Shown: positions 9,221 through 45,708 of the stretch, in pieces
How positions within the stretch are numbered: position 1 is the first letter of the stretch
Layout of the letters: each line of letters begins with the position of its first letter
Made by a program: the position numbers and the translations under genes
The notes under the pieces: generated by a model
Database searches by the model: none
Told to the model about the DNA's origin: nothing
Seen by the model: only the letters and a program-made list of their open reading frames with translations
NCBI GenBank assembly: GCA_001820725.1
Contig: MHQR01000026.1
Location: forward strand, 7,885-55,645
Direction of reading: 5' to 3'
From: Candidatus Sungbacteria bacterium RIFCSPLOWO2_01_FULL_54_21
GTDB lineage: Bacteria > Patescibacteriota > Minisyncoccia > Sungbacterales > HO2-52-23
DNA length: 47,761 bases

Positions 9221-11923
9221 TTAGCTCTTTGCGGCGATCGCCGTGGCGCGGTGTCTAGCGGGCATCCTGCGAAGCGTCTTTGCAAACGCCGCTTTTCCGT
9301 CGGCGACATCCGCGAGCACGGCATCCCCATCAACGATATGACCTCCGATAATCTCCTGCGCCAGCGGATCCAGAATCAATGTCTGTATCGCGCGCTTGAG
9401 CGGACGCGCGCCATACTGCGGATCATACCCTTTTTCCGCGACCATTTTTTTCAGGTCGTCGGAAAATGAAATCGCGATACCGCGCCCGGCCATGCGTCTC
9501 TCCACGCGCACCAGCTGCAGTTCCACGATGGCTCCGATGACTATTGGCGAGAGCGGCGAAAAAATTACGATCTCGTCCAGGCGATTGAGAAATTCCGGAC
9601 GGAAATAACGCTCGAGCGACTTCCTGATTTTTTCCTTCATGTCCTGCTCTTTGCGATCACGCGTGTCTTCGTCAGCGCTTGCGAATCCTATCTTGCTCAT
9701 CTCGCGTGAATATTCGCTTCCGATGTTGGATGTCATGATGATGATCGTATTTTTGAAATTCACCACACGGCCCTTGGCATCGGTGAGGCGTCCGTTGTCC
9801 AAAATCTGCAAGAGCACGTTGAATACTTCAGGATGCGCTTTTTCGATTTCGTCGAAGAGCACCACGGCGTACGGCCGGTGGCGGATGATTTCTGTCAGCT
9901 GTCCGCCTTCTTCATAGCCAACATATCCAGGCGGCGAGCCGATGAACTTCGACACGGTGTGCCGTTCCATATATTCGGACATGTCCACGCGCACGAGCGC
10001 TTTCTCGTCGTTGAACAGCATTTCCGCAAGCGCTTTAGCAAGTTCCGTTTTTCCGACGCCCGTGGGCCCGAGGAAAATAAACGACCCGATCGGGCGATTC
10101 TCTTCCCCAATGCCCGCTCTGCTGCGCCGCACGGCATTGGCGATTTTTTCAATCGCCTCTTCCTGGCCGATCACGCGGCGCTTGAGTTCGTCCTCAATCT
10201 TGAGCAGACGCGACGCCTCTGTCTCGAGGATCTTGGTCACCAGAATGCCCGTCCAGCGCGCCACGACCGCCGCGATATCCTCATCCGTTACCTCGCCCCG
10301 CGGAAGTCGCCGCGAGTTCTGCAAATCCTTCAAGGCGCTTTCCGCCTCATGCAGGCGTTTTTCGCTTTCCGGTATTTTGCCGTAGCGCAGTTCCGCCACT
10401 TTCCCGAATTCACCCGCGCGTTCGGCGATATCCGCTTCCTGGCGCGCAGTATCCAGCTCCTGCTTGAGCGCGCGTATTGACGTGATCGCCTCTTTTTCCG
10501 TTTTCCACGCCGTTTCCATCGCGGCCGTGTTCTGCTGGAAGTCCGCGATGTCCTTCTCGATCTTTTTCAAACGGTCTTTTGCTTTCTTGTCCGTAGCGTT
10601 TTTTAGGGCTTCGCGCTCGATTTCCAGAGACATGACCGCGCGGCGCGTCTCGTCGAGCTCCTTGGGCAGTGAATCCATTTCCAAACGCAGGGAAGACGCG
10701 GCCTCATCCATGAGGTCCACGGCCTTGTCCGGAAGAAAACGATCGGTAATATAGCGGCTGGAAAGGTGCGCGGCAGAGACCAGAGCGCCATCAGTAATCT
10801 TGATGCCGTGATGGGCTTCGTATTTCGGCTTGAGTCCGCGCAGAATCGCGATGGTATCATCCACCGTCGGCTCGTCCACGATCACGGGCTGAAAGCGGCG
10901 CGCAAGCGCCGGATCCCGCTCAATGTAGCGCTGGTATTCGCGCAGGGTCGTGGCGCCAATCGCGTGAAGCTCGCCGCGCGCAAGCGCGGGTTTAAGCATA
11001 TTTGACGCATCAATCGCGCCCTCTGCCGCACCCGCGCCCACAAGCGTATGCAATTCATCAATGAAGACGATATATTTTCCTTCACCTCGTTCGATCTCGC
11101 GCAGGATCGCCTTGAGACGATCTTCAAATTCACCGCGGTATTTGGTGCCCGCGACAATCGCCGCCAGATCTACGGAAATCAGTTCCTTGTCCTTGAGCGT
11201 CTCCGGCACGTCGCCCGAGACAATACGCTGGGCAAGGCCCTCCACGATCGCGGTCTTTCCCACGCCCGCCTCTCCGATGAGCACGGGGTTGTTTTTCGTC
11301 CGGCGCGATATCACTTCCATCACGCGGCGTATCTCAATACTTCGCCCCACGACTGGATCGAGCTTTTCTTGCTTGGCCAAGCGCGTCAGATTCTTGGCAT
11401 ATTTCTCAATGACGTTGTATTTGGTCTCCGGCTCCGGATCCGTAATGCGCTGGCCGCCGCGCAATTCCGACAGCGCTTTCTGCACGCTGTCTTTGCTTAA
11501 TCCGTGTCTCCCGAGCAGTTCTTTGGCGCGCGAGGGTATTTCCAAAAGCGCCAGGAACAGGTGTTCGGTTGAAATAAATTCGTCTTTGAGCTGTGCGGCT
11601 TCCCGATGCGCCTGCTCAATCACCTTTGCTAAATCCTGCGTCAGATACACCTGTCCGAGCGGGGTCGCGATCATGGCGCCGCGCGGCATGGCATCCAGCG
11701 TCTCCAGCAGGCGGTCGGCAAACGCGGAAATATCTATCTCTAGTTTTTCGAGAATCGCGTCCACCGTTCCCTCTTCCTGCAGAACAAGAGACGTGGTTAG
11801 ATGCAGAACATCAATCTGTTGATGCGACCGCTCGAGCGCCAAGTCATGCGCTTTCTTGAGCACTTCCTGGGCTTTGATCGTGAATTGATTGTACGGAGGC
11901 ACAGCCCCTGGTCCGATTGGCAT
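9221..11923 (-). CDS. clpB: ATP-dependent chaperone ClpB
   Basis: Two AAA+ modules with Walker A GEAGVGKT and GPTGVGKT, a long middle coiled coil, 900 aa. Confidence 0.95.
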
Positions 11924-27916: not shown

Positions 27917-28510
27917 TCATCTCACGGAGAAGGATGCGCGATGGATGGGCGAGAAGCCATGTTGTTTCAGCAGGCGCCTATGCAAAACCGTGCCATATCC
28001 TTTGTGCAGATCAAAGCGGTACAGGGGAAATTTCTTGTGCGTACGTACCATGAGCCGGTCGCGCGTAACTTTGGCGATGATGGACGCCGCAGAAACGGCA
28101 GGGATTTTTTCATCCCCTTTTATGATCGCCTTGTAGCGTACAGAAGAGGGCAGTGTTAGTCCGGCATCCACGAGCACAGATTCCAGACTAAGTCTGGAAT
28201 CTCGTTCCAGACTTAGTCTGGAATAAACACGGCGGGCGCCAAGATTTCCTGCCGCAGATATATTTATCCGATCAATCACCATGGGCGACACCCGCGCGAC
28301 CGCCCATTCAATTGCGGGATGATGCGTCAGCACGCGATACCATGCTTCGCGCTGTGCAGGACTCAATTTTTTAGAATCGCGAATGCCGAAAAGCACGCGG
28401 CGCGCATGTCCTGGCTTTATTTTCACGCCTGCGACCACGACGGGTCCTGCCAGCGGCCCGCGCCCCGCCTCATCAATACCGATGATAAAGGTTTCTCTGT
28501 TGCCCTGCAT
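27917..28510 (-). CDS. rnhB: ribonuclease HII (carries an in-frame palindromic insert)
   Basis: Start moved to MQGNRETFIIGIDEAGRGPLAGPVV. IIKGDEKIPAVSAASIIAK. Insert SRLSLERDSRLSLE is encoded by 28181..28223. Confidence 0.9.
   Translation of the reverse strand: MQGNRETFIIGIDEAGRGPLAGPVVVAGVKIKPGHARRVLFGIRDSKKLSPAQREAWYRVLTHHPAIEWAVARVSPMVIDRINISAAGNLGARRVYSRLSLERDSRLSLESVLVDAGLTLPSSVRYKAIIKGDEKIPAVSAASIIAKVTRDRLMVRTHKKFPLYRFDLHKGYGTVLHRRLLKQHGFSPIHRASFSVR
28181..28223. repeat. P19 palindrome doublet inside rnhB
   Basis: TTCCAGACTAAGTCTGGAA + TCTCG + TTCCAGACTTAGTCTGGAA. Each unit is a perfect 19-bp palindrome. Confidence 0.9.
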
Positions 28511-28535
28511 GGTTTGTATAGTACAATGGGCTACG

Positions 28536-31500
28536 ATGAAATTCACGCATTTGCATGTCCATTCGCATTACAGCTTGCTCGACGGGCTGGCAAAAATCGA
28601 CGGGCTGGTAGCGCGCGCGGCAGAGCTTGGTATGCGGGCGCTGGCGCTCACCGATCATGGCAATCTCTACGGCGCCATAGAGTTTTACCAAAAAGCAAAA
28701 AAAGCCGGCATCAAACCCATCATCGGGGTGGAGGCGTACATCGCGTACGAAAAAATGACTGATCGGCGCCCACAGATCGACGACAAGCGGTATCACCTCA
28801 CTATTCTCGCGGAAAATACCGAAGGATATCACAACCTCATTAAAGCGGTCACCGCATCCCACCTCCACGGCTTCTATTATAAGCCGCGCATGGACAAAGA
28901 TCTTTTGCGCCGGCACGCCAAAGGACTCATCGCGCTCTCCGGATGCTTTAACGGCGAAATCCCCCGCGCGATTCAAAACAAAAAGATGGACGTGGCAGAG
29001 CGGCTCGTCCGCGAGTACCAGGATATTTTCGGCCGCGACAATTTCTATCTGGAAATCATGCCGCACACGGCATTTGCGGACCAGAAGCCGACCAACGAGG
29101 CGCTCGCCGTACTGGCGGGGAAAACCGGCGCCAAACTCGTCGCCACCAACGACATACATTATATACACGCCGAAGACGCCGAAGCGCAAGACATTCTCGT
29201 GTCCATCCAAACCGGATCGCGCATGGATGATGAAAATCGCCTCACGATGAAAAAAGCGAATCTTTCCCTGCGATCGGCCGATGATATGGCGGCGCTTTTT
29301 GCCGATCATCCGTTAGCGATTGCCGCCACGGAGGAAATCGCATCGCGCGTGGATATCCGCCCGGAACTTGGCACATGGATCCTTCCCACGCCGCGTCTCG
29401 AAAAAGAAACGGATCACGGGAAAGAGTTGCGACGTCTTACCTACGAGGGCATCGCACAGCGCGGGCTGGAGGAGACCCCCGAGGTTACCCGACGTATTGA
29501 ATACGAGCTCGACATCATCGCCAAGCGCGGATTTCTTGCTTACTACCTAGTGGTCGCGGATTTTCTGCGTTTTGCGCATGAACAGAAAATCTTTACTACG
29601 GTACGGGGGTCCGGCGGAGGATCGCTGGTTGCATACCTCACCGGCATCACGCCGGTAAATCCCCTCGAATACAAGCTTCCGTTTGAGCGGTTTCTCAATC
29701 TTGAGCGGCCGGCGCCGCCGGATTTCGACATGGATTTCGCGGACAACCGACGAGACGAAATGCTCGAATATGCAAAACACACATACGGAGAAGATCGTGT
29801 CGCCCAGATCGGTACGTTCGGCACCATGGCGGCGCGCGCGGCGGTGCGCGATGTCGCGCGCGCGCTGGGATATCCCTACGGCATGGGCGACCGGATTGCC
29901 AAGCTCATTCCCATCGGCGCGCAGGGATTTCCCATGACCCTTGACCGGGCGCTCAAGGAAACGCCGGAGCTGAAACACATCTATGACACAGATCCTGATG
30001 TCAAGCGTATTATTGATCGCTCGAAAAAACTTGAAGGGTGCGTGCGGCACGCATCGGTCCATGCCGCAGGAGTCGTAATTTCTCCGTCCCCGCTTGTGGA
30101 ATACATACCGCTTCAGTTGGACCCCAAAGGAGGAAAAATTATCACACAATACGAAATGACATCCATCGATCCCTCGTATTCGCCGGATCCTGCATTTGCT
30201 GTGGGATTGCCGAAAATAGATTTCTTGGGCATACGCAACCTTTCTATTCTGGAAGATGCCATCCGTTTGGTAAAACTCCATCAGAACATCGACGTAGACA
30301 TAGAAAAAATTCCCCTTGACGACACAAAGACATTCACTCTTCTTGCCAACGGCGAAACCATGGGGCTGTTCCAGCTGGGAGGATCAGGCATGACAAAATA
30401 TCTCAAAGACCTTAAGCCGACGACGATTCACGATATCAACGCAATGGTGGCGCTCTACCGCCCCGGCCCCCTCGAATCCATTCCTACCTATATTCAGCGC
30501 AAGCACAGCCCGCACCTCGTTTCTTATCTTGACCCGCGCATGAAAGATATTCTCGGCCAATCGTACGGCGTCATCGTCTATCAGGACGACGTCATGCTCA
30601 TCGCAATCAATCTTGCGGGCTATTCATGGCTTGAAGCGGATAAGTTGCGCAAGGCCATGGGGAAAAAGATACCGGCGGAAATGGCCGCGCAAAAAGAAAA
30701 ACTCGCGGAGGGACTGCGTAAAAACGGGATGCCCCAGCACAAAATAGAGACCCTATGGAAATTGATCGAGCCGTTTGCGGCATATGGATTCAACAAGTCG
30801 CACGCCGCCTGCTATGGCCGCGTCGCGTACCAAACCGCCTACATGAAGGCCAACTTTCCTGGAGAATATATGACCGCGGTGCTCACCGCGGAATCCGGCG
30901 ATATGGAGACAATCGCCGAGATCATCACCGAATGCATGCGCATGGGCATCCCGGTGCTTGCGCCCGATGTAAACGAGAGTCATGCAAGATTCACCCTTAT
31001 TAAAAAATCGGGTACTGCCGAAAGCGACACTATACGCTTCGGTCTTGAAACTATAAAAAACGTAGGCACGAACATCGTCGAAGCGCTCATAGCCGAACGG
31101 GAAGCACAAGGGAAATTTATCTCGCTCGCCGATTTTTGCGAGCGCGTGCGGCACAAGGACTTCAATAAAAAGTCGTTGGAGTCCTTGATGAAATGCGGAG
31201 CCCTCGACGGCCTCGGCGAGCGCGGCGCATTGCTCGCCAATCTTGATCTTCTGCTCGACTACAACCGCGAATCGCAGAAAACCGCCCAGCAAGGACAGAC
31301 GTCTCTTTTTTCTGCTTCCCCCGCCACGCACGCATCATCGCTCTATCTCAAGCCCGCCGAGCCGGCGGCCAAACGCGACCGCCTGCAATGGGAGAAAGAG
31401 CTCCTCGGCCTGTACCTCACCGAGCACCCGATGCTGGAATACCTCAAGCGTCTGGGACGGCGAAAGCTGGTGCCCTTCAAAGAGATCACCCCTGCCTTGC

Positions 31501-36133: not shown

Positions 36134-37153
36134 ATGCAGAAAATCATTGTCATCGTAGGCCCTACGGCATCGGGCAAATCGGCGCTCGCGGTCTTGCTCG
36201 CAAAAAAATTCAACGGCGAAGTCGTCTCCGCCGATTCGCGTCAGGTGTATCGCGGACTTGAAATCGGATCCGCCGCAATCACTGATAGAGAAATGCGAGG
36301 CGTGCCGCATCACCTTGTCGGCATTGTCTCGCCGCGAGAGGTATGTACCACTGGACACTTTGTCGCGGCGGCTCGGGACGCGATCGCCGATATCGCGCGG
36401 CGAGGCCGCGTCCCCATTGTCGCGGGCGGCACCGCATTCTGGGTCAATGCCCTAGCGCAAGGCATCGTCTTGCCCGAAATAAAGCCAGATACGGCGCTCC
36501 GCCGGCGGCTTGAGAAAAAATCAGCCGCCCAACTCTTTGCCATACTCAAAAAAGCAGACCCCCGCCGCGCAGGGGATATTGAACAACAAAATCCTCGCCG
36601 CCTGATCCGCGCCATCGAAATCGCGCGCTCGCTGGGCCGCGTCCCCCCTTTTGTTAAACACCGAGTGTTTAACACGCTGTGGCTCGGCCTCAATCCGGCT
36701 CCGGTGCTGCTCGCCCGCCGCGTCACGGCGCGCGCAGAGCGCATGATTCGCGACGGCCTTGCCGCAGAGACCCGGGCGCTCGCGCGAAGCATCCCTATAA
36801 AACGCGTCCGCGAATTTGGATTTGAGTATCGCGCGGCGCTTTTGTATAACCGCGGCGAGCTGACGCGCAAACAGTTTGCCGCGCGCCTCGTGGCCGACAC
36901 CCTGCACTATGCAAAACAGCAAAACCGATGGTGGAAACGCAATCCGGCCATTTATTGGATTACCGCTCCCGATGTTGCGCGACGTTTCGGAGCACGGCAC
37001 AAATGGGACAATGTCCACGCCGCGGCAATCTCACTCGTCAAAAAATTCTTGCAAAAAAGTCCCTCACGGACTGCCAAAAACCGGCTGACGTTTCGGGCGG
37101 CGCCGGCCGTTCGTCCGGCACGACCACGACGACTTCCTCGCCCGGGTTCTTGA
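36134..37153 (+). CDS. miaA: tRNA dimethylallyltransferase
   Basis: P-loop GPTASGKSALAV, SADSRQVYRGLEIGSA. The C-terminal region contains repeat R2 in frame and a 33-aa Arg/Pro-rich tail overlapping the convergent gene. Confidence 0.9.
   Translation: MQKIIVIVGPTASGKSALAVLLAKKFNGEVVSADSRQVYRGLEIGSAAITDREMRGVPHHLVGIVSPREVCTTGHFVAAARDAIADIARRGRVPIVAGGTAFWVNALAQGIVLPEIKPDTALRRRLEKKSAAQLFAILKKADPRRAGDIEQQNPRRLIRAIEIARSLGRVPPFVKHRVFNTLWLGLNPAPVLLARRVTARAERMIRDGLAAETRALARSIPIKRVREFGFEYRAALLYNRGELTRKQFAARLVADTLHYAKQQNRWWKRNPAIYWITAPDVARRFGARHKWDNVHAAAISLVKKFLQKSPSRTAKNRLTFRAAPAVRPARPRRLPRPGS
36963..37030 (+). repeat. R-type element, copy R2 (inside the miaA coding region)
   Basis: CCGCTCCCGATGTTGCGCGACGTTTCGGAGCACGGCACAAATGGGACAATGTCC. 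Aligns with R3 over the 5' arm, the TTCGGAGCA segment and GGGACAATGTCC. Translated as APDVARRFGARHKWDNVHAA. The 3' boundary is approximate. Confidence 0.7.
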
Positions 37154-37509: not shown

Positions 37510-37640
37510 CCGCTCCCGATGTTGTGTAAACGATTATTAATCGTTTACACATTTCGGAGCAAGGCGCCTTTGGGACAATGTCCCCGCGAGACAGTGTCTC
37601 GCGTGCCATGCTATGCAACATCGGACAATTTCGGCAGCGG
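37510..37640 (+). repeat. R-type element, copy R3 (intergenic, with nested palindromes)
   Basis: 5' arm CCGCTCCCGATGTTG and 3' arm CAACATCGGACAATTTCGGCAGCGG. Contains the 29-nt palindrome TGTGTAAACGATTA-T-TAATCGTTTACACA (37523-37551), GGGACAATGTCCC and CGCGAGACA-G-TGTCTCGCG. Abuts the lepA stop. Confidence 0.8.
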
Positions 37641-39561: not shown

Positions 39562-41280
39562 TTATTTCTCCGCCTCTCCCCCCCATTCTGCGGGAAGGCG
39601 GCGTAGAGAGAACAGGCGCCGGGTGATGCTTTTTCGCAACGCTCCAACCTCCTCGTTCCCTAGCATAGAGAGCACCGCCCAATATACCCCGAAGCCGGCT
39701 CCTGCCGCCACTGCCCCCTGCAGGAGCACGCGCGCAAAGGTGATGAGCGGCAGGGTCTGGGAAAAACTGGCGCGGACCGCATACGCGGCAATACCTGCGC
39801 CGAGCGCGGCGCAGGCGATTTGCCCGATTGTCTTTGCTCCCGTCGGCGCGGCCCTGATACCAAACCGCCGCCGGGCCGCCCGGATGAGCAGGATCCACAG
39901 CGCCAGGGCGTTGATCACCACGCCCGCGGCAAACGCGAGACCCATCCCCAGCACCGCAGGATGCGCCATGTCCTGGATGCGGAAAAGCGCGGCAATGGCG
40001 ACGCTTTCCGGCGAAGCCCGCCCAAGCGCCCGCGTCAAAGCCCAGGCGATACCGACCGTGCCCACAGACGTTACCGCATTTACGGCAAGCGGTATACGCG
40101 TATTTCCCAAAGCATAAAATCCGCGGATGAGCAGGATATGGAGGGCTCCGGCCGCCATGGCGATGCATAATGAGGCCAGCACCGCCGCCGTAAGCCGCGT
40201 GTCTTCCCAGGAAAATGCGCCAGCGCCGAGACCAACGCGCACGATGTGCGCGCGCAGAACGAGGACGAGAACCGCCGCAGGCATTACCCAGAAAAGAATG
40301 CTGTGTATGCCGGCTGATAATTCTTCCAGAAAGTCCCTCCCCGAATCCAGCGCCGCCGCCCGCGCCATGCGCGGAAACACCGCAACCGCGTAACTTGCGG
40401 CAAAGATGCCGATGGGCACGAAATACAAATCATACGCTGCGGAAAAGACGGCCACGCTTCCTTCAGCGAGCGTCGAGCCGATTGCAATAAGAACCAGCAC
40501 CGTCAGCTGGGAAAGAGAGATGGCGAGCACGCGGGGAAAAGAAAGTACGAGCACCTTCCGTATGCCAACAGCAATTCCAGACTTAGTCTGGAATTTCCAG
40601 ACTAAGTCTGGAATTCTCGTGAGACCAAACCCGAGGCGCGCGGCGAAGATATATTGCACCGACATATGGAGCAGTGCGCCGAGCGCCACGCCCATACCAA
40701 GCCCCCTCACGCCGAAGATAGGCACAAACAGCAGGATGCCGACCACGATGCCCATGTTGTAGAGGATGGGCGCCAGGGCATAGACAAAGAAGAGCCGGAA
40801 TGATTGCAGAACCACGGAGAAGATACCGGACAGACCGAAAAGAATCGGGGATATGAGCATGAGCCGGACCAGAGCGGTCATGAGTGAGCGCTCGCCGGAG
40901 GAAAAGCCGGGCGCTATCAAGGGGACGATGGCCGGTACGGCAAAAAATACCACCGCGGAAAGCGCGAGCGCGGCGAGAAAAAAGAGTGTGGAAAGGGCGG
41001 CAATGAATGCTTTGGCTTTTTTTCTGTCTTCAATCAAGTACTCCTGAAATATCGGCAGGATGGCGGCCGATGCCGCGCCCAGCAAAAACACTGCGGCCAT
41101 GAAGTCGGGTATCTGGAACGCCGCGTAATAGATATCCAACTCCCGCCCCGCGCCGAATTCGGCGAAAAGCAAACGGTTGCGCACGACACCCACCAGCCGG
41201 CTCGCCAGTCCTGCGGTGCCCAAAAGAAGCGCCGCGGCATGGACGTTCGCCACTTCCTGTTTCAGAAACGCAAGTCGCAC
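39562..41280 (-). CDS. murJ: lipid II flippase MurJ (carries an in-frame palindromic insert)
   Basis: LLGTAGLASRLVGVVRNRLLFAEFGAG.ELDIYYAAFQIPDF N-terminus, about 14 TM helices. Insert IPDLVWKFQTKSGI is encoded by 40575..40613. Confidence 0.9.
   Translation of the reverse strand: MRLAFLKQEVANVHAAALLLGTAGLASRLVGVVRNRLLFAEFGAGRELDIYYAAFQIPDFMAAVFLLGAASAAILPIFQEYLIEDRKKAKAFIAALSTLFFLAALALSAVVFFAVPAIVPLIAPGFSSGERSLMTALVRLMLISPILFGLSGIFSVVLQSFRLFFVYALAPILYNMGIVVGILLFVPIFGVRGLGMGVALGALLHMSVQYIFAARLGFGLTRIPDLVWKFQTKSGIAVGIRKVLVLSFPRVLAISLSQLTVLVLIAIGSTLAEGSVAVFSAAYDLYFVPIGIFAASYAVAVFPRMARAAALDSGRDFLEELSAGIHSILFWVMPAAVLVLVLRAHIVRVGLGAGAFSWEDTRLTAAVLASLCIAMAAGALHILLIRGFYALGNTRIPLAVNAVTSVGTVGIAWALTRALGRASPESVAIAALFRIQDMAHPAVLGMGLAFAAGVVINALALWILLIRAARRRFGIRAAPTGAKTIGQIACAALGAGIAAYAVRASFSQTLPLITFARVLLQGAVAAGAGFGVYWAVLSMLGNEEVGALRKSITRRLFSLRRLPAEWGGEAEK
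40575..40613. repeat. P19 palindrome doublet inside murJ
   Basis: TTCCAGACTTAGTCTGGAA + T + TTCCAGACTAAGTCTGGAA. Same two units as in rnhB, in swapped order. Confidence 0.9.
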
Positions 41281-44494: not shown

Positions 44495-45708
44495 GTGAGC
44501 GTCGGCCGCAGGGCAATATCGGTAAGCGACTCATTACGCGTGTACACCCCCTCTTTGGTCATAATATTTTTCCGATCCGATCGCGGCTTCCGCTGTTTCC
44601 CCCGACCCTTATGGACGACGTGGAGCGGGAAGAATTCAAAATAGTCCTTTTCATCAAACCACGCGCATTTGAAAGCATACATGCGCAGGCCCGTGAGCCG
44701 CGAGAGCGCCATGGCGTAAAGCGTCAATTGCTCGATCGGCTTTTCTTTTGCCGCATTGGGCTTGTAGTCGAGAATATGTATCTGGCCGTTACGCACCTGC
44801 ACGAGATCAATGTGGCCGGTAATCAATCGGGGAAGTTCCTCTGCCGACAATTGACGTAACCCGCTACCGATATTGTCCGCTTTTACAGCAAGTCCCAATT
44901 GGGACTTGCCTCGACGCCGGGCAACATCGGGAGCGTATAACTCAAACCCCAACTGTCTCTGCATATGCAACAAATCGTCCTTTCTAATGTACACCGGCAC
45001 TTCGACCGCCACGGTTACCGTATCGTTAGCAAGCATGAATTTCTGCACTGCCTCGTGCCGGTCTTTGTTCCTCTCCACTCCCTGCAGGGCGAATGCGGCG
45101 AGCGCATTGGCAAAATTATGTTTTGACCGCACGATCATCTGCTCCTTTGAAAACCGCAGAGGCGATTCGGACATCCGCAGCCCTTCTTGAAAATACTGGT
45201 GCGGCGTCTCACTGGATACGAGCGACAAAAACTCGGCGAGCGGCCCGAAGCTGGCGTGCCTGATGTCTTCGCGGATGATCATCCTGGTTTTCGCCCGATG
45301 CCACATGAAGCGGTAGAGCTGGCGGTGCGCGAGTGTGGCTGTCTCTACCACATGCTCCGGCCGGAACATCTTGAGCGCGAACGGGCGATAGCGGTGATAC
45401 CGGCAGAGTTCCTTGAATTCTTCCACCCAGTTGGCTACCGTCGAAGCCGATATATCAAAATCCGTTTTCTGCTTTATGATCTTGCACGCCTGCTCCAGCG
45501 AAAATCCGAGGTTATAGTAGCTCATGGCATCAATGATCACGCGGTGCGGATAGTGCTTGCCTTTTACTTCCTTGGGCGTGAACGCGCGCAGGCACGAGCG
45601 GCACAGCCACAGCTGTACGCGCTCGCGCTTTTTTTCGCGCCATCCCCGCTTCACCGTATCCGGCGAGGCGCAATAGGCGCATGGTGTTGTGGACAACTTA
45701 CTTGACAT
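44491..45708 (-). CDS. InsA-like Zn-ribbon + HTH fused to a PD-(D/E)xK (RecB/Cas4-like) nuclease domain
   Basis: Start moved to MSSKLSTTPCAYCASPDTVKRGW..LCRSCLRAF (CxxC..CxxC). HTH-like FSLEQACKIIKQKTDFDISASTVANWV. C-terminus has VAVEVPVY .. GHIDLVQV .. IHILDYKP .. QLTLYAMAL (E, D, D-x-K and Q-x-x-x-Y motifs). Repeat R4 lies in frame between the E and D strands. Confidence 0.5.
   Translation of the reverse strand: MSSKLSTTPCAYCASPDTVKRGWREKKRERVQLWLCRSCLRAFTPKEVKGKHYPHRVIIDAMSYYNLGFSLEQACKIIKQKTDFDISASTVANWVEEFKELCRYHRYRPFALKMFRPEHVVETATLAHRQLYRFMWHRAKTRMIIREDIRHASFGPLAEFLSLVSSETPHQYFQEGLRMSESPLRFSKEQMIVRSKHNFANALAAFALQGVERNKDRHEAVQKFMLANDTVTVAVEVPVYIRKDDLLHMQRQLGFELYAPDVARRRGKSQLGLAVKADNIGSGLRQLSAEELPRLITGHIDLVQVRNGQIHILDYKPNAAKEKPIEQLTLYAMALSRLTGLRMYAFKCAWFDEKDYFEFFPLHVVHKGRGKQRKPRSDRKNIMTKEGVYTRNESLTDIALRPTLT
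44860..44935 (-). repeat. R-type element, copy R4 (inside the nuclease gene)
   Basis: On the minus strand: CGCTCCCGATGTTG ... GCAAGTCCCAATTGGGACTTGC (22-nt perfect palindrome) ... CAATATCGGTAGCGGG. Translated as APDVARRRGKSQLGLAVKADNIGSG. Confidence 0.8.

What the first reader, a model, noticed from the sequence alone, without database searches (positions are those of the whole stretch)
28181..28223. Tandem pair of a 19-bp perfect palindrome sits in frame inside RNase HII
TTCCAGACTAAGTCTGGAA (28181-28199), a 5-nt spacer, then TTCCAGACTTAGTCTGGAA (28205-28223). On the coding strand the pair is read as SRLSLE-RD-SRLSLE, an extra loop of about 14 aa just before the conserved VLVDAG strand of RnhB. 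The only other copies in the window are inside murJ (40575-40613). A structured repeat that colonises essential ORFs without breaking them resembles Rickettsia palindromic elements (RPEs). I know of no description of this for this kind of genome.
Basis: partly seen in the sequence, partly recalled or inferred. Interest (0 to 1): 0.75.

Follow-up and report, generated by a model that had tools for sequence, protein, structure and literature searches.

The report
Hairpin repeats written into essential genes
A 19-base palindrome that recurs in pairs inside the RNase HII and MurJ genes of a groundwater Sungbacteria (CPR) genome belongs to a dispersed REP-type hairpin repeat family tied to a RAYT-like tyrosine transposase; about half of the copies examined sit in frame inside housekeeping genes without breaking them.

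Summary
Two exact 19-bp palindromes lie in rnhB and two in murJ, against 0 expected by chance, and the rnhB pair is identical in 10 independently assembled contigs.

It is not a local oddity. A scan of reference genomes found 40 loci, 39 of them in seven related CPR MAGs. About half lie deep inside verified genes (LigA, PolX, CCA enzyme, KsgA, PepA, a Mur ligase, an IscS-like enzyme). All three stop-free reading frames are used.

The same genome as the window encodes a Y1/HUH transposase. Its closest structural match is the E. coli REP-associated transposase bound to a REP hairpin. Its gene carries the same palindrome upstream, inside the coding sequence, and at the stop codon. In diverged homologues these copies change together.

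RnhB and MurJ orthologues keep perfect palindromes, or compensated variants, at the same site. Flanking DNA is only about 73% identical. Other MurJ orthologues have a short, empty loop.

Best reading: a REP/REPIN–RAYT system, new for CPR bacteria and unusually intragenic. Rickettsia palindromic elements and intragenic REPs are published precedents, so this is a new variant of a known kind. Mobilisation by the transposase is inferred, not shown.

The parts
28181..28199 (.). REP-type unit with central A (TTCCAGACTAAGTCTGGAA). On the coding (minus) strand it is the second SRLSLE.
   Evidence: It folds as an 8-bp stem with a 3-nt loop, -6.2 kcal/mol, z -4.7.
28205..28223 (.). REP-type unit with central T. 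It is the reverse complement of the first unit. On the coding strand it is the first SRLSLE.
28180..28224 (.). REPIN-like doublet: two inverted units with a 5-nt spacer, able to form one long hairpin on either strand.
   Evidence: 20-bp stem, -21.8 and -21.9 kcal/mol, z -9.6 and -8.9. The same doublet sits at the orthologous site in L041 and L042, and compensated variants in L043 and L044.
27917..28546 (-). rnhB (RNase HII), the host gene. The probable start is at 28510, giving the 197-aa form P0001. Element-coded residues are 109-122 of the 209-aa ORF.
   Evidence: Pfam RNase_HII 3e-34. PDB RNase HII hits 1.7e-33. In the AF2 model the segment is the end of a helix plus a low-confidence loop before the strand carrying invariant D127.
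40575..40593 (.). REP-type unit with central T. On the coding (minus) strand it reads FQTKSG.
40595..40613 (.). REP-type unit with central A. On the coding (minus) strand it reads PDLVW.
40573..40615 (.). REPIN-like doublet with a 1-nt spacer, in the rarer T-then-A order.
   Evidence: Inverted repeat I23, 21-nt arms, 100% complementary. Hairpin -21.2 and -21.3 kcal/mol, z -9.5 and -10.4. Same site and same order in the 70%-identical orthologue L147.
39562..41280 (-). murJ (lipid II flippase), the host gene. The element codes 13 residues within the segment between RLGFG and GIRKVL.
   Evidence: Pfam MurJ 1e-61. Alignment to 7waw shows extra residues there. Many orthologues have an 8-residue stretch where the window has 19, i.e. 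an empty site.

Best explanation
**What it is.** The 19-bp palindromes are REP-type hairpin repeats of a REP/REPIN–RAYT system native to a clade of Candidatus Sungbacteria (CPR/Patescibacteria).
- A unit is an 8-9-bp stem around T-A/T-A.
- The tandem pair is a REPIN-like doublet. Its two units are in inverted orientation, distinguishable only by the central A or T. As single-stranded DNA, and presumably as RNA, it folds into one stem of about 20 bp.

**How it most likely works (inferred).**
- The genome's RAYT-like Y1/HUH tyrosine transposase is A3J10_00990, in the same genome as the window. I infer that it recognises the hairpin on single-stranded DNA and copies or re-installs units, as IS200/IS605 and REP-associated transposases do.
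- This keeps all copies in a genome identical and makes them change together with the enzyme across lineages.

**Why the host genes survive.** These genomes are tightly packed. Many copies have landed in loop-coding parts of housekeeping genes such as rnhB and murJ. Only insertions that keep the frame and avoid the palindrome's TAA/TAG frame survive. Those copies are translated as short loop peptides (SRLSLE, FQTKSG, PDLVW) that the proteins tolerate.

**Shown:**
- the repeat family, its in-frame intragenic placement, and occupancy of orthologous sites;
- covariation of the repeat with the transposase;
- the transposase's RAYT-like fold and its flanking by the repeat.

**Inferred:**
- catalysis by this enzyme, the single-strand hairpin mechanism, and homogenisation of old copies;
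- that the segment stays in the mRNA and the protein.
For: **1. A dispersed family.**
- The reference-genome scan found 40 loci with exact 19-mers; about 4 would be expected by chance in 596 Gb.
- 39 of them lie in seven related MAGs, with 8-15 loci in each of the three richest.
- The units occur singly or as doublets with 0-21-nt spacers. The order is A-then-T in 17 doublets, T-then-A in 3 and A-then-A in 1.

**2. Intragenic and in frame.**
- About 18 of 39 loci lie at least 50 codons inside long ORFs.
- Pfam confirms the hosts checked: Aminotran_5, PolX/PHP, Peptidase_M17, Mur ligase, CCA enzyme and RrnaAD. LigA is confirmed by its PDB alignment.
- All three stop-free frames occur.
- At several ORF ends the palindrome supplies the stop codon, for example in LeuRS and ATP synthase delta.

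**3. Transposase link.**
- L008 and L039 encode Y1_Tnp proteins (Pfam 2e-7, above the cut-off). The best NCBIfam hit is REP_Tyr_transpos.
- In the window organism's copy (L045) the layout is: tRNA-Pro, REP, ORF with an internal REP, stop codon inside a REP, tRNA-Gly.
- That protein, P0123 (A3J10_00990), is in the same MAG as the window contig (GCA_001822455.1). It shares the locus-tag prefix of the window's MurJ.
- The AF2 model has pLDDT 93. The top PDB match is 4er8, E. coli RAYT bound to a REP hairpin (E 2.5e-6, TM 0.70), ahead of the ISDra2 and IS608 transposases.

**4. Covariation with the transposase.**
- In diverged homologues the flanking palindromes differ: GCCAAGCTTAGCTTGGC in L046 and GCAAGCTTAGCTTGC in L047.
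- The internal and C-terminal REP-coded peptides change together: FQT/FQT, FRT/FRT, YRT/YRT, YQA/YQA, YQT/YQT, CRA/CRA, FQA/FQA.

**5. Maintenance at orthologous sites.**
- RnhB orthologues at 61-71% identity carry the same units (L041, L042) or compensated palindromic variants: CCAAGC/GCTTGG in L043 and CTAGAC/GTCTAG in L044.
- MurJ of L147 (70% identity) has both perfect units at the same site.
- Flanking DNA is 73% identical over 2678 aligned positions.

**6. Insertion polarity.**
- MurJ orthologues P0244, P0245, P0247 and many others have an 8-residue loop where the window has 19. L146 (74% identity) has unrelated DNA there.
- Among 80 distant RnhB genes only one (L067) has a palindrome with arms of 9 or more in that loop, and it is an unrelated sequence.
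Against: - No activity was tested. The RAYT link rests on flanking position, covariation and fold.
- The transposase scores below the NCBIfam RAYT cut-off (33 against 80 bits). A sequence profile does not reach 4er8.
- Canonical REP features are missing. There is no GTAG or CGTC tag and no conserved tetranucleotide 5' of the hairpin; only positions -1 and +1 are biased.
- Published REPINs are described as 'almost exclusively' extragenic and about 100 bp long. Here about half the loci are intragenic and doublets are 38-60 nt.
- Copy number is tens per genome, not hundreds.
- Two repeat-rich MAGs (CAYJOT, CAYIAH) showed no RAYT in the fetched 8-kb loci. Their whole genomes could not be searched.
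- Single units add almost no length to the RnhB loop (15 against 12-13 residues). The internal REP of the transposase is not a length insertion relative to distant homologues. Simple insertion does not explain every copy.
- Perfect conservation at fixed sites could also reflect a host function.
Confidence: 0.75

Rival explanations
1. The palindrome is mainly a host-function site. It would be a binding site for a dimeric DNA-binding protein (centromere/parS-like, nucleoid, operator) or a DNA-uptake signal. Selection would keep it at fixed positions, and the transposase association would be secondary.
For: - The 19-mers stay perfect at orthologous sites while flanks are about 73% identical.
- Copy number is modest, at tens per genome.
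- The centre is only ever A or T in 81 copies.
- From general knowledge, E. coli REPs bind host proteins, so a secondary host role is not exotic.
Against: - The sequence changes between lineages, and it does so together with the copies bracketing the Y1 transposase gene. A conserved host site would not be expected to do this.
- Spacers within doublets vary from 0 to 21 nt, and orthologues differ in carrying one unit or two.
- Sites are empty in some orthologues.
- One locus per 20-40 kb is far sparser than known uptake sequences, which I recall at about 1 per kb.
Confidence: 0.12
2. It is an orphan miniature palindromic element, like RPEs or CGTC-type REPs, that spreads or is homogenised without a dedicated transposase. 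Hairpin template switching or gene conversion would do the work. The Y1 gene would be just one more locus that the repeats have invaded.
For: - The repeats invade many genes, so three copies at one 650-bp gene could be invasion.
- CGTC REPs and RPEs are reported to lack a dedicated transposase (PMC3733652).
- Loop inversion by template switching would explain why the centre flips only between A and T.
Against: - Flanking by the lineage's own palindrome variant recurs in all five transposase loci examined, across 49-100% protein identity.
- The internal and terminal copies covary across homologues.
- The protein's fold best matches the REP-bound RAYT.
- Template switching acts within one locus. 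It cannot keep dozens of loci identical.
Confidence: 0.1
3. It is a local event or an artefact: a tandem duplication within rnhB, a protein-level repeat under selection, or an assembly or adapter artefact.
For: - The 24-nt period in rnhB looks like a tandem duplication.
- Many RnhB orthologues share an xLSL...xLSLE loop at the protein level.
Against: - The same 19-mer is read in three different frames in unrelated genes and also lies between genes.
- It occurs at 40 loci in several MAGs built by different pipelines.
- It is identical in 10 independently assembled loci.
- Compensated variants exist in orthologues.
Confidence: 0.01

Closest known systems
REP / REPIN – RAYT systems of Proteobacteria (E. 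coli TnpA-REP, PDB 4er8; Pseudomonas REPINs)
   Same: - Short hairpin-forming palindromes are dispersed in the genome, often as inverted doublets.
- An HUH/Tyr transposase gene is flanked by the same repeat.
- Repeat and enzyme co-vary between lineages.
- The gene keeps the same neighbours in close relatives (PMC3337134 and bioRxiv 10.1101/2021.07.10.451892).
   Different: - About half of the loci are inside genes and are translated.
- The unit is a perfect 19-bp palindrome with one asymmetric base.
- There is no GTAG or CGTC tag.
- Doublets are 38-60 nt, not about 100 bp.
- There are tens of copies per genome, not hundreds.
- The transposase has a C-terminal extension of about 70 residues, an internal repeat copy and a stop codon inside a repeat.
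- The host is a CPR bacterium.
Intragenic REPs of Opitutus terrae and other species (Di Nocera et al. 2013, PMC3733652)
   Same: - REP singles and dimers lie in frame inside known genes, many of them replication or repair genes. Here the hosts include RnhB, LigA and PolX.
- REP ends supply TAG stop codons to neighbouring ORFs.
   Different: - The sequence family is different and untagged.
- The intragenic share is much higher.
- Occupancy of the same intragenic site persists across orthologues only 60-70% identical, with concerted sequence change.
Rickettsia palindromic elements (RPE)
   Same: Palindromic repeats are inserted in frame in genes for functional proteins of a small, reduced genome. 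The inserted peptides fall in loops (for the published description; here).
   Different: - From memory, RPE-1 is about 100-150 bp.
- RPE-4 and RPE-6 are CGTC-tagged REPs for which no dedicated transposase is known.
- They are restricted to Rickettsia.
- Here the units are 19 bp, untagged, in Sungbacteria, and have a cognate Y1 transposase.
IS200/IS605 insertion sequences (IS608, ISDra2)
   Same: The Y1/HUH catalytic core is shared (HxH and Tyr motifs). Hairpin recognition on single-stranded DNA is the presumed chemistry.
   Different: - The transposase gene sits at one conserved chromosomal locus between tRNA genes, not in multiple mobile copies.
- The multiplied entity is the bare hairpin, not a gene-carrying element.

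Membership tests
REP/REPIN–RAYT system | A short palindromic repeat that forms a hairpin, with many dispersed copies in one genome | tested here: met
   There are 4 copies in the window against 0 expected. Related MAGs carry 8-15 loci each. The unit hairpin is -6.2 kcal/mol, z -4.7.
REP/REPIN–RAYT system | Doublets of two units in inverted orientation that can fold into one longer hairpin (REPIN) | tested here: met
   Of 21 doublets, 20 are inverted. They fold as one stem of 20-23 bp, -21 to -23 kcal/mol. They are shorter (38-60 nt) than typical REPINs.
REP/REPIN–RAYT system | The transposase gene is flanked by the genome's own repeat | tested here: met
   Seen in L008, L039, L045, L046 and L047. 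The flanked gene is in the same MAG as the window.
REP/REPIN–RAYT system | The enzyme is a Y1/HUH transposase of the RAYT type | tested here: inconclusive
   HxH and YxHxN motifs are invariant. Pfam Y1_Tnp is above its cut-off. The best NCBIfam hit is REP_Tyr_transpos, but at 33 bits against a cut-off of 80. The best structural match is 4er8 RAYT, TM 0.70. Placement in a RAYT phylogeny was not done.
REP/REPIN–RAYT system | The transposase is single-copy, vertically inherited and in the same genomic context | tested here: inconclusive
   The tRNA-Pro / tRNA-Gly and UPF0102 / HU context is shared by L045 and L008 at 77% identity. The context differs in L039, L046 and L047. Copy number per complete genome could not be counted.
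REP/REPIN–RAYT system | Extragenic location | tested here: not met
   About 18 of 39 loci, plus both window loci, lie deep inside ORFs.
REP/REPIN–RAYT system | A conserved tetranucleotide (GTAG or CGTC tag, or guide) at the foot of the hairpin | tested here: not met
   In the flank profile of 66 units, only position -1 (A/T) and position +1 (T/C) are biased. There is no GTAG or CGTC. The rule comes from PMC6006769 and PMC3733652.
REP/REPIN–RAYT system | Repeat multiplication depends on the transposase | not testable with these tools
   This needs biochemistry, or comparison of complete genomes with and without the gene.
Rickettsia palindromic elements (RPE) | Palindromic repeat inserted in frame in genes that stay functional | tested here: met
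   Host ORFs are intact and conserved.
Rickettsia palindromic elements (RPE) | Sequence and size of the RPE families (CGTC-tagged RPE-4/6, long RPE-1), restricted to Rickettsia | tested here: not met
   The unit is 19 bp with no CGTC tag. The host is Candidatus Sungbacteria. Direct comparison with RPE sequences was not run.
MITE | A 70-300-bp element with terminal inverted repeats and target-site duplications | tested here: not met
   Units are 19 bp and doublets 38-60 nt. No direct duplication is apparent in the aligned flanks.

The most novel reading that the evidence does not exclude
The system may be more than a passive passenger. The transposase would actively re-install its current hairpin at fixed sites, including loops of essential genes. 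Copies would therefore stay perfect and co-evolve with the enzyme across genus-level divergence.

The single asymmetric base would also act as a flip switch. In the FQT frame, a central A gives AAG (Lys) and a central T gives TAG (stop). Inversion of the loop could then truncate or extend the transposase itself. The homologue P0168 ends exactly at the internal repeat. In principle the same flip could switch host genes off.
Probability: 0.15. Interest if true: 0.75.

Novelty: new variant of a known kind. Interest (0 to 1): 0.55.

Why it matters
- **Reach of REP/RAYT systems.** They have been studied mainly in Proteobacteria and are defined as extragenic. Here one appears in the Candidate Phyla Radiation, in a very small and gene-dense genome. 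Roughly half of its copies are translated parts of essential enzymes.
- **Link between two literatures.** It gives a transposase-linked counterpart to the Rickettsia palindromic elements. It suggests that dense genomes push such repeats into loop-coding DNA.
- **A tractable question.** Perfect or compensated palindromes persist at the same codons in orthologues only 60-70% identical. This gives a clean natural system for asking how hairpin repeats are kept uniform: re-insertion, gene conversion or selection.
- **Practical consequences.** These repeats add lineage-specific loops to CPR proteins. They create 20-bp hairpins inside mRNAs. They can mislead alignment, gene calling and assembly.

Tried and rejected
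- **Metagenome scan with the RnhB alignment.** It was useful only as a negative control.
- **Sequence searches of the transposase against PDB.** The single sequence gave nothing. The profile gave only weak ISDra2 hits. A structure comparison was needed.
- **Rfam on the whole window.** No family matched.
- **tblastn for the transposase in the window and in 44 loci.** It was found only in L008 and L039, not in the window itself.
- **Search for decayed copies in the window.** A 13-mer core with 2 mismatches found none beyond the four known units.
- **Ideas considered and rejected.**
  - Adapter or assembly artefact: ruled out by independent assemblies and evolutionary variants.
  - Tandem duplication or protein-level repeat: ruled out because three reading frames are used and intergenic copies exist.
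  - MITE with target-site duplication: none is apparent.
  - The Hyphomicrobiales glyS copy (L034) as evidence of cross-phylum spread: a single exact match is within chance expectation.
- **Not achieved.**
  - A whole-genome census in the window's own genome.
  - An unbiased decay rate for orthologous copies, because most loci were fetched through an exact match.
Full report
**1. The observation**

- Window 28181-28199 reads TTCCAGACTAAGTCTGGAA. Window 28205-28223 reads TTCCAGACTTAGTCTGGAA. A 5-nt spacer separates them.
- The two 19-mers are reverse complements of each other. Each is a perfect palindrome around one central base, so A or T at the centre is the only mark of orientation.
- They lie in the minus-strand ORF 27917..28546, which is RNase HII (Pfam 3e-34; PDB RNase HII 1.7e-33). 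They are read as SRLSLE-RD-SRLSLE just before VLVDAG.
- The only other copies in the window are at 40575-40593 and 40595-40613, with a 1-nt spacer. They lie in MurJ (Pfam 1e-61) and are read in two other frames, as PDLVW-K-FQTKSG.
- Shuffled sequence gives no match even with three mismatches allowed.
- The unit has a stop codon in one frame per orientation: TAA in frame 3 of the A form and TAG in frame 1 of the T form. Both genes use open frames.

**2. Not an artefact; source organism**

- The identical RnhB protein is encoded on 23 contigs. The 10 loci fetched come from ENA, JGI and NCBI assemblies, are 99.4-99.99% identical to window 17917-38510, and all carry the identical doublet.
- The window's MurJ is named A3J10_02335 of Candidatus Sungbacteria bacterium RIFCSPLOWO2_02_FULL_54. 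The nearest named RnhB relatives are also Sungbacteria (Parcubacteria, CPR).

**3. A dispersed family**

- A scan of one genome per species (596 Gb) for the exact 19-mer found 40 loci. About 4 would be expected by chance.
- 39 of them fall in seven related MAGs. Six are labelled Saccharibacteria, but their RnhB groups with Sungbacteria. The seventh is a Sungiibacteriota MAG.
- The three richest MAGs hold 8, 10 and 15 loci.
- The remaining hit is a single copy in a Hyphomicrobiales glyS. It is compatible with chance.
- Units occur alone or as doublets with 0-21-nt spacers. The order is A-then-T in 17 doublets, T-then-A in 3 and A-then-A in 1.
- Allowing three mismatches gives 81 copies. The centre is never C or G.
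- Only the bases directly outside the unit are biased: A/T before it and T/C after it. There is no GTAG or CGTC tag and no apparent target-site duplication.
- As single strands, a unit folds at -6.2 kcal/mol. Doublets fold as one 20-23-bp stem at -21 to -23 kcal/mol on both strands (z -9 to -11).

**4. Where the copies sit**

- About 18 of the 39 loci lie at least 50 codons inside long ORFs.
- The hosts are a class-V aminotransferase (IscS/NifS-like), PolX-PHP, leucyl aminopeptidase, a Mur ligase, the CCA-adding enzyme, KsgA, a TPR membrane protein, LigA, RnhB and a conserved hypothetical protein. Seven of these were confirmed by Pfam and LigA by its PDB alignment.
- All three open frames are used, giving FQTKSG, SRLSLE and PDLVW. 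Protein-level selection therefore cannot explain the repeat.
- Other copies lie at ORF ends, where the palindrome's TAG or TAA supplies the stop (LeuRS ...SRLSLEFQT*, ATP synthase delta). Others lie between genes.
- Alignment to solved structures places the coded peptides in extra loop residues:
  - about 7 extra residues in MurJ;
  - about 26 in LigA;
  - about 8 in KsgA.
- In an AF2 model of the window's RnhB, residues 109-122 form the end of a helix plus the least confident internal loop. The loop lies directly before the strand that carries invariant D127.

**5. Comparison with orthologues**

*RnhB*
- Orthologues at 61-71% identity have the homologous loop, and their DNA is palindromic too:
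  - L041 has the same two units, with both centres flipped;
  - L042 has two overlapping units inside a perfect 47-nt palindrome;
  - L043 has TTCCAAGCTAAGCTTGGAA;
  - L044 has CTAGACTWAGTCTAG units inside a perfect 48-nt palindrome.
- The last two differ from the window by paired changes that keep the stem.
- Two related MAGs carry a single unit at the same place (L012, L014).
- In 80 distant RnhB genes the loop is usually 12-13 residues and has no palindrome with arms of 9 or more. The one exception is an unrelated 34-bp palindrome in L067.
- The Sungbacteria loops are 15 residues with one unit and 18-21 with two. The net gain is therefore smaller than the element.

*MurJ*
- L147 (70% identity) has both perfect units at the same site, in the same rare order, with a 22-nt spacer.
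- L146 (74% identity) has unrelated DNA there.
- Many orthologues have an 8-residue loop where the window has 19.

*Flanks*
- Across 16 orthologous comparisons, 90-nt flanks are 73% identical (1958 of 2678 positions) while the units stay perfect.
- Most loci were fetched through an exact match, which biases that comparison. The unbiased cases are L041, L042 and L147, which were fetched by protein similarity.

**6. The transposase**

- In L008, three units lie within 700 bp. They bracket and enter a 220-aa ORF, and L039 has the same arrangement.
- The protein is a Y1/HUH transposase:
  - Pfam Y1_Tnp scores 2e-7, above the cut-off;
  - the best NCBIfam hit is REP-associated tyrosine transposase, but below its cut-off;
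  - PNHxH and YIHxN are invariant.
- Homologue P0123 (A3J10_00990) belongs to the window's own genome. It is in MAG GCA_001822455.1 together with a contig 99.4-99.96% identical to the window. It occurs in the same samples and shares the locus-tag prefix.
- Its locus (L045) reads as follows:
  - tRNA-Pro;
  - CATTCCAGACTAAGTCTGGAATG, ending 27 nt before the start codon;
  - the ORF, with an internal unit read as FQTKSG just after the catalytic-Tyr motif;
  - the stop codon inside TCATTCCAGACTTAGTCCGGAATGA;
  - tRNA-Gly.
- L008 has the same tRNA neighbours. More distant loci do not.
- Diverged homologues are flanked by their own palindrome variants (L046, L047).
- Across the homologue list, the internal peptide and the C-terminal peptide change together: FQT/FQT, FRT/FRT, YRT/YRT, YQA/YQA, YQT/YQT, CRA/CRA, FQA/FQA.
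- An AF2 model (pLDDT 93) matches best the E. coli REP-associated transposase bound to a REP hairpin (4er8; E 2.5e-6; TM 0.70 over the whole target). The ISDra2 and IS608 transposases rank behind it.

**7. Interpretation**

- The anatomy is that of a REP/REPIN–RAYT system: a hairpin repeat, inverted doublets, a cognate HUH/Tyr enzyme flanked by the repeat, covariation of repeat and enzyme, and stable gene context in close relatives.
- I infer that the enzyme acts on the hairpin in single-stranded DNA. I also infer that it copies units, or re-installs them at existing copies.
- Re-installation would explain three things together: doublets and single/double differences between orthologues, identity of all copies within a genome, and concerted change at fixed sites.
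- Centre flips restricted to A and T are what loop inversion of a perfect hairpin would give.
- In a gene-dense genome, many surviving insertions are those that fell into loop-coding DNA in an open frame. Rickettsia palindromic elements and intragenic REPs show the same pattern (PMC3733652).

*Rivals*
- A primary host function for the site is not excluded as an added role. It does not explain the covariation with the transposase.
- An orphan element without a dedicated enzyme is weakened by five out of five flanked transposase loci and by the fold match.

**8. Comparison with known systems, and novelty**

- Features met for REP/RAYT: repeat, doublets, flanked transposase.
- Inconclusive: RAYT clade membership by sequence, and single-copy vertical inheritance.
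- Not met: extragenic location and the tagged or guide tetranucleotide.
- Published descriptions say REPINs are 'almost exclusively' extragenic and about 100 bp long.
- Intragenic REPs, including dimers in replication and repair genes and REP-supplied TAG stops, were reported in 2013. In-frame palindromic repeats are therefore not new.
- No paper in the library combines RAYT or REPIN with Patescibacteria, and a broader Candidate Phyla Radiation search listed nothing relevant.
- What appears new:
  - the host phylum;
  - the untagged perfect palindrome;
  - the high intragenic share;
  - the repeat inside, and terminating, the transposase gene;
  - the deep conservation of intragenic sites with compensated sequence change.
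- I rate this a new variant of a known kind, with moderate interest.

**9. Limits**

- No activity, expression or protein data were available.
- There is no whole-genome census for the window's genome.
- The genic/intergenic classification rests on ORF continuity, with Pfam or PDB checks for eight of the host gene families.
- Comparisons between loci fetched through an exact 19-mer match are biased toward conserved copies.

Noticed in passing
L067:4367-4400: A different, unrelated 34-bp perfect palindrome (TCCACAAATTCTGACGGCCGTCAGAATTTGTGGA) sits in the same RnhB loop of a 41%-GC organism from another lineage. It reads in frame and is not repeated elsewhere in its 8.7-kb locus. The loop may be a recurrent landing site for palindromes.
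   Followed up: partly
window:5602-5624 and window:37526-37548: A 23-nt palindrome, GTAAACGATTNNNAATCGTTTAC, occurs twice with 96% arm complementarity. It looks like an operator or a second small palindromic repeat. The second copy lies inside a copy of the repeat family described in the next item.
   Followed up: no
window:20174-20277, 36963-37020, 37549-37587, 44862-44935: A second dispersed repeat of about 55 nt (CCGCTCCCGATGTTGYG...GCACGGCAC...GGGACAnTGTCC) is present in four to six copies in both orientations. Its nature is unknown.
   Followed up: partly
window:33663-33817 and window:35315-35469: A 155-nt direct repeat at 85% identity, 1652 nt apart, lies in the stretch that holds two N_methyl (pilin-like) genes. 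It is probably paralogous gene segments.
   Followed up: no
P0168 (transposase homologue, 151 aa, on a 123,680-bp contig): This homologue ends with ...LFQA, exactly at the position of the internal repeat. A central T there would turn the Lys codon AAG into the stop TAG. That would suggest a centre flip can truncate the enzyme after its catalytic core. The DNA was not inspected.
   Followed up: no
L045:9810-9880 and 10603-10673; L008:1537-1607 and 2377-2450: The transposase gene lies between tRNA-Pro(TGG) and tRNA-Gly(TCC) in two genomes whose enzymes are 77% identical. UPF0102 lies upstream and HU downstream. More distant homologues sit elsewhere.
   Followed up: yes
L034:6695-6713: One exact 19-mer lies in frame in glyS of a GC-rich Hyphomicrobiales MAG. 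A single hit is within the roughly 4 exact matches expected by chance in 596 Gb, so it is not evidence of spread outside CPR.
   Followed up: partly
L042:423-469 and L044:351-398: In two RnhB orthologues the whole doublet plus a few flanking bases is one perfect 47- or 48-nt palindrome that is still read in frame. This suggests the mobile or homogenised unit can be the full doublet.
   Followed up: partly
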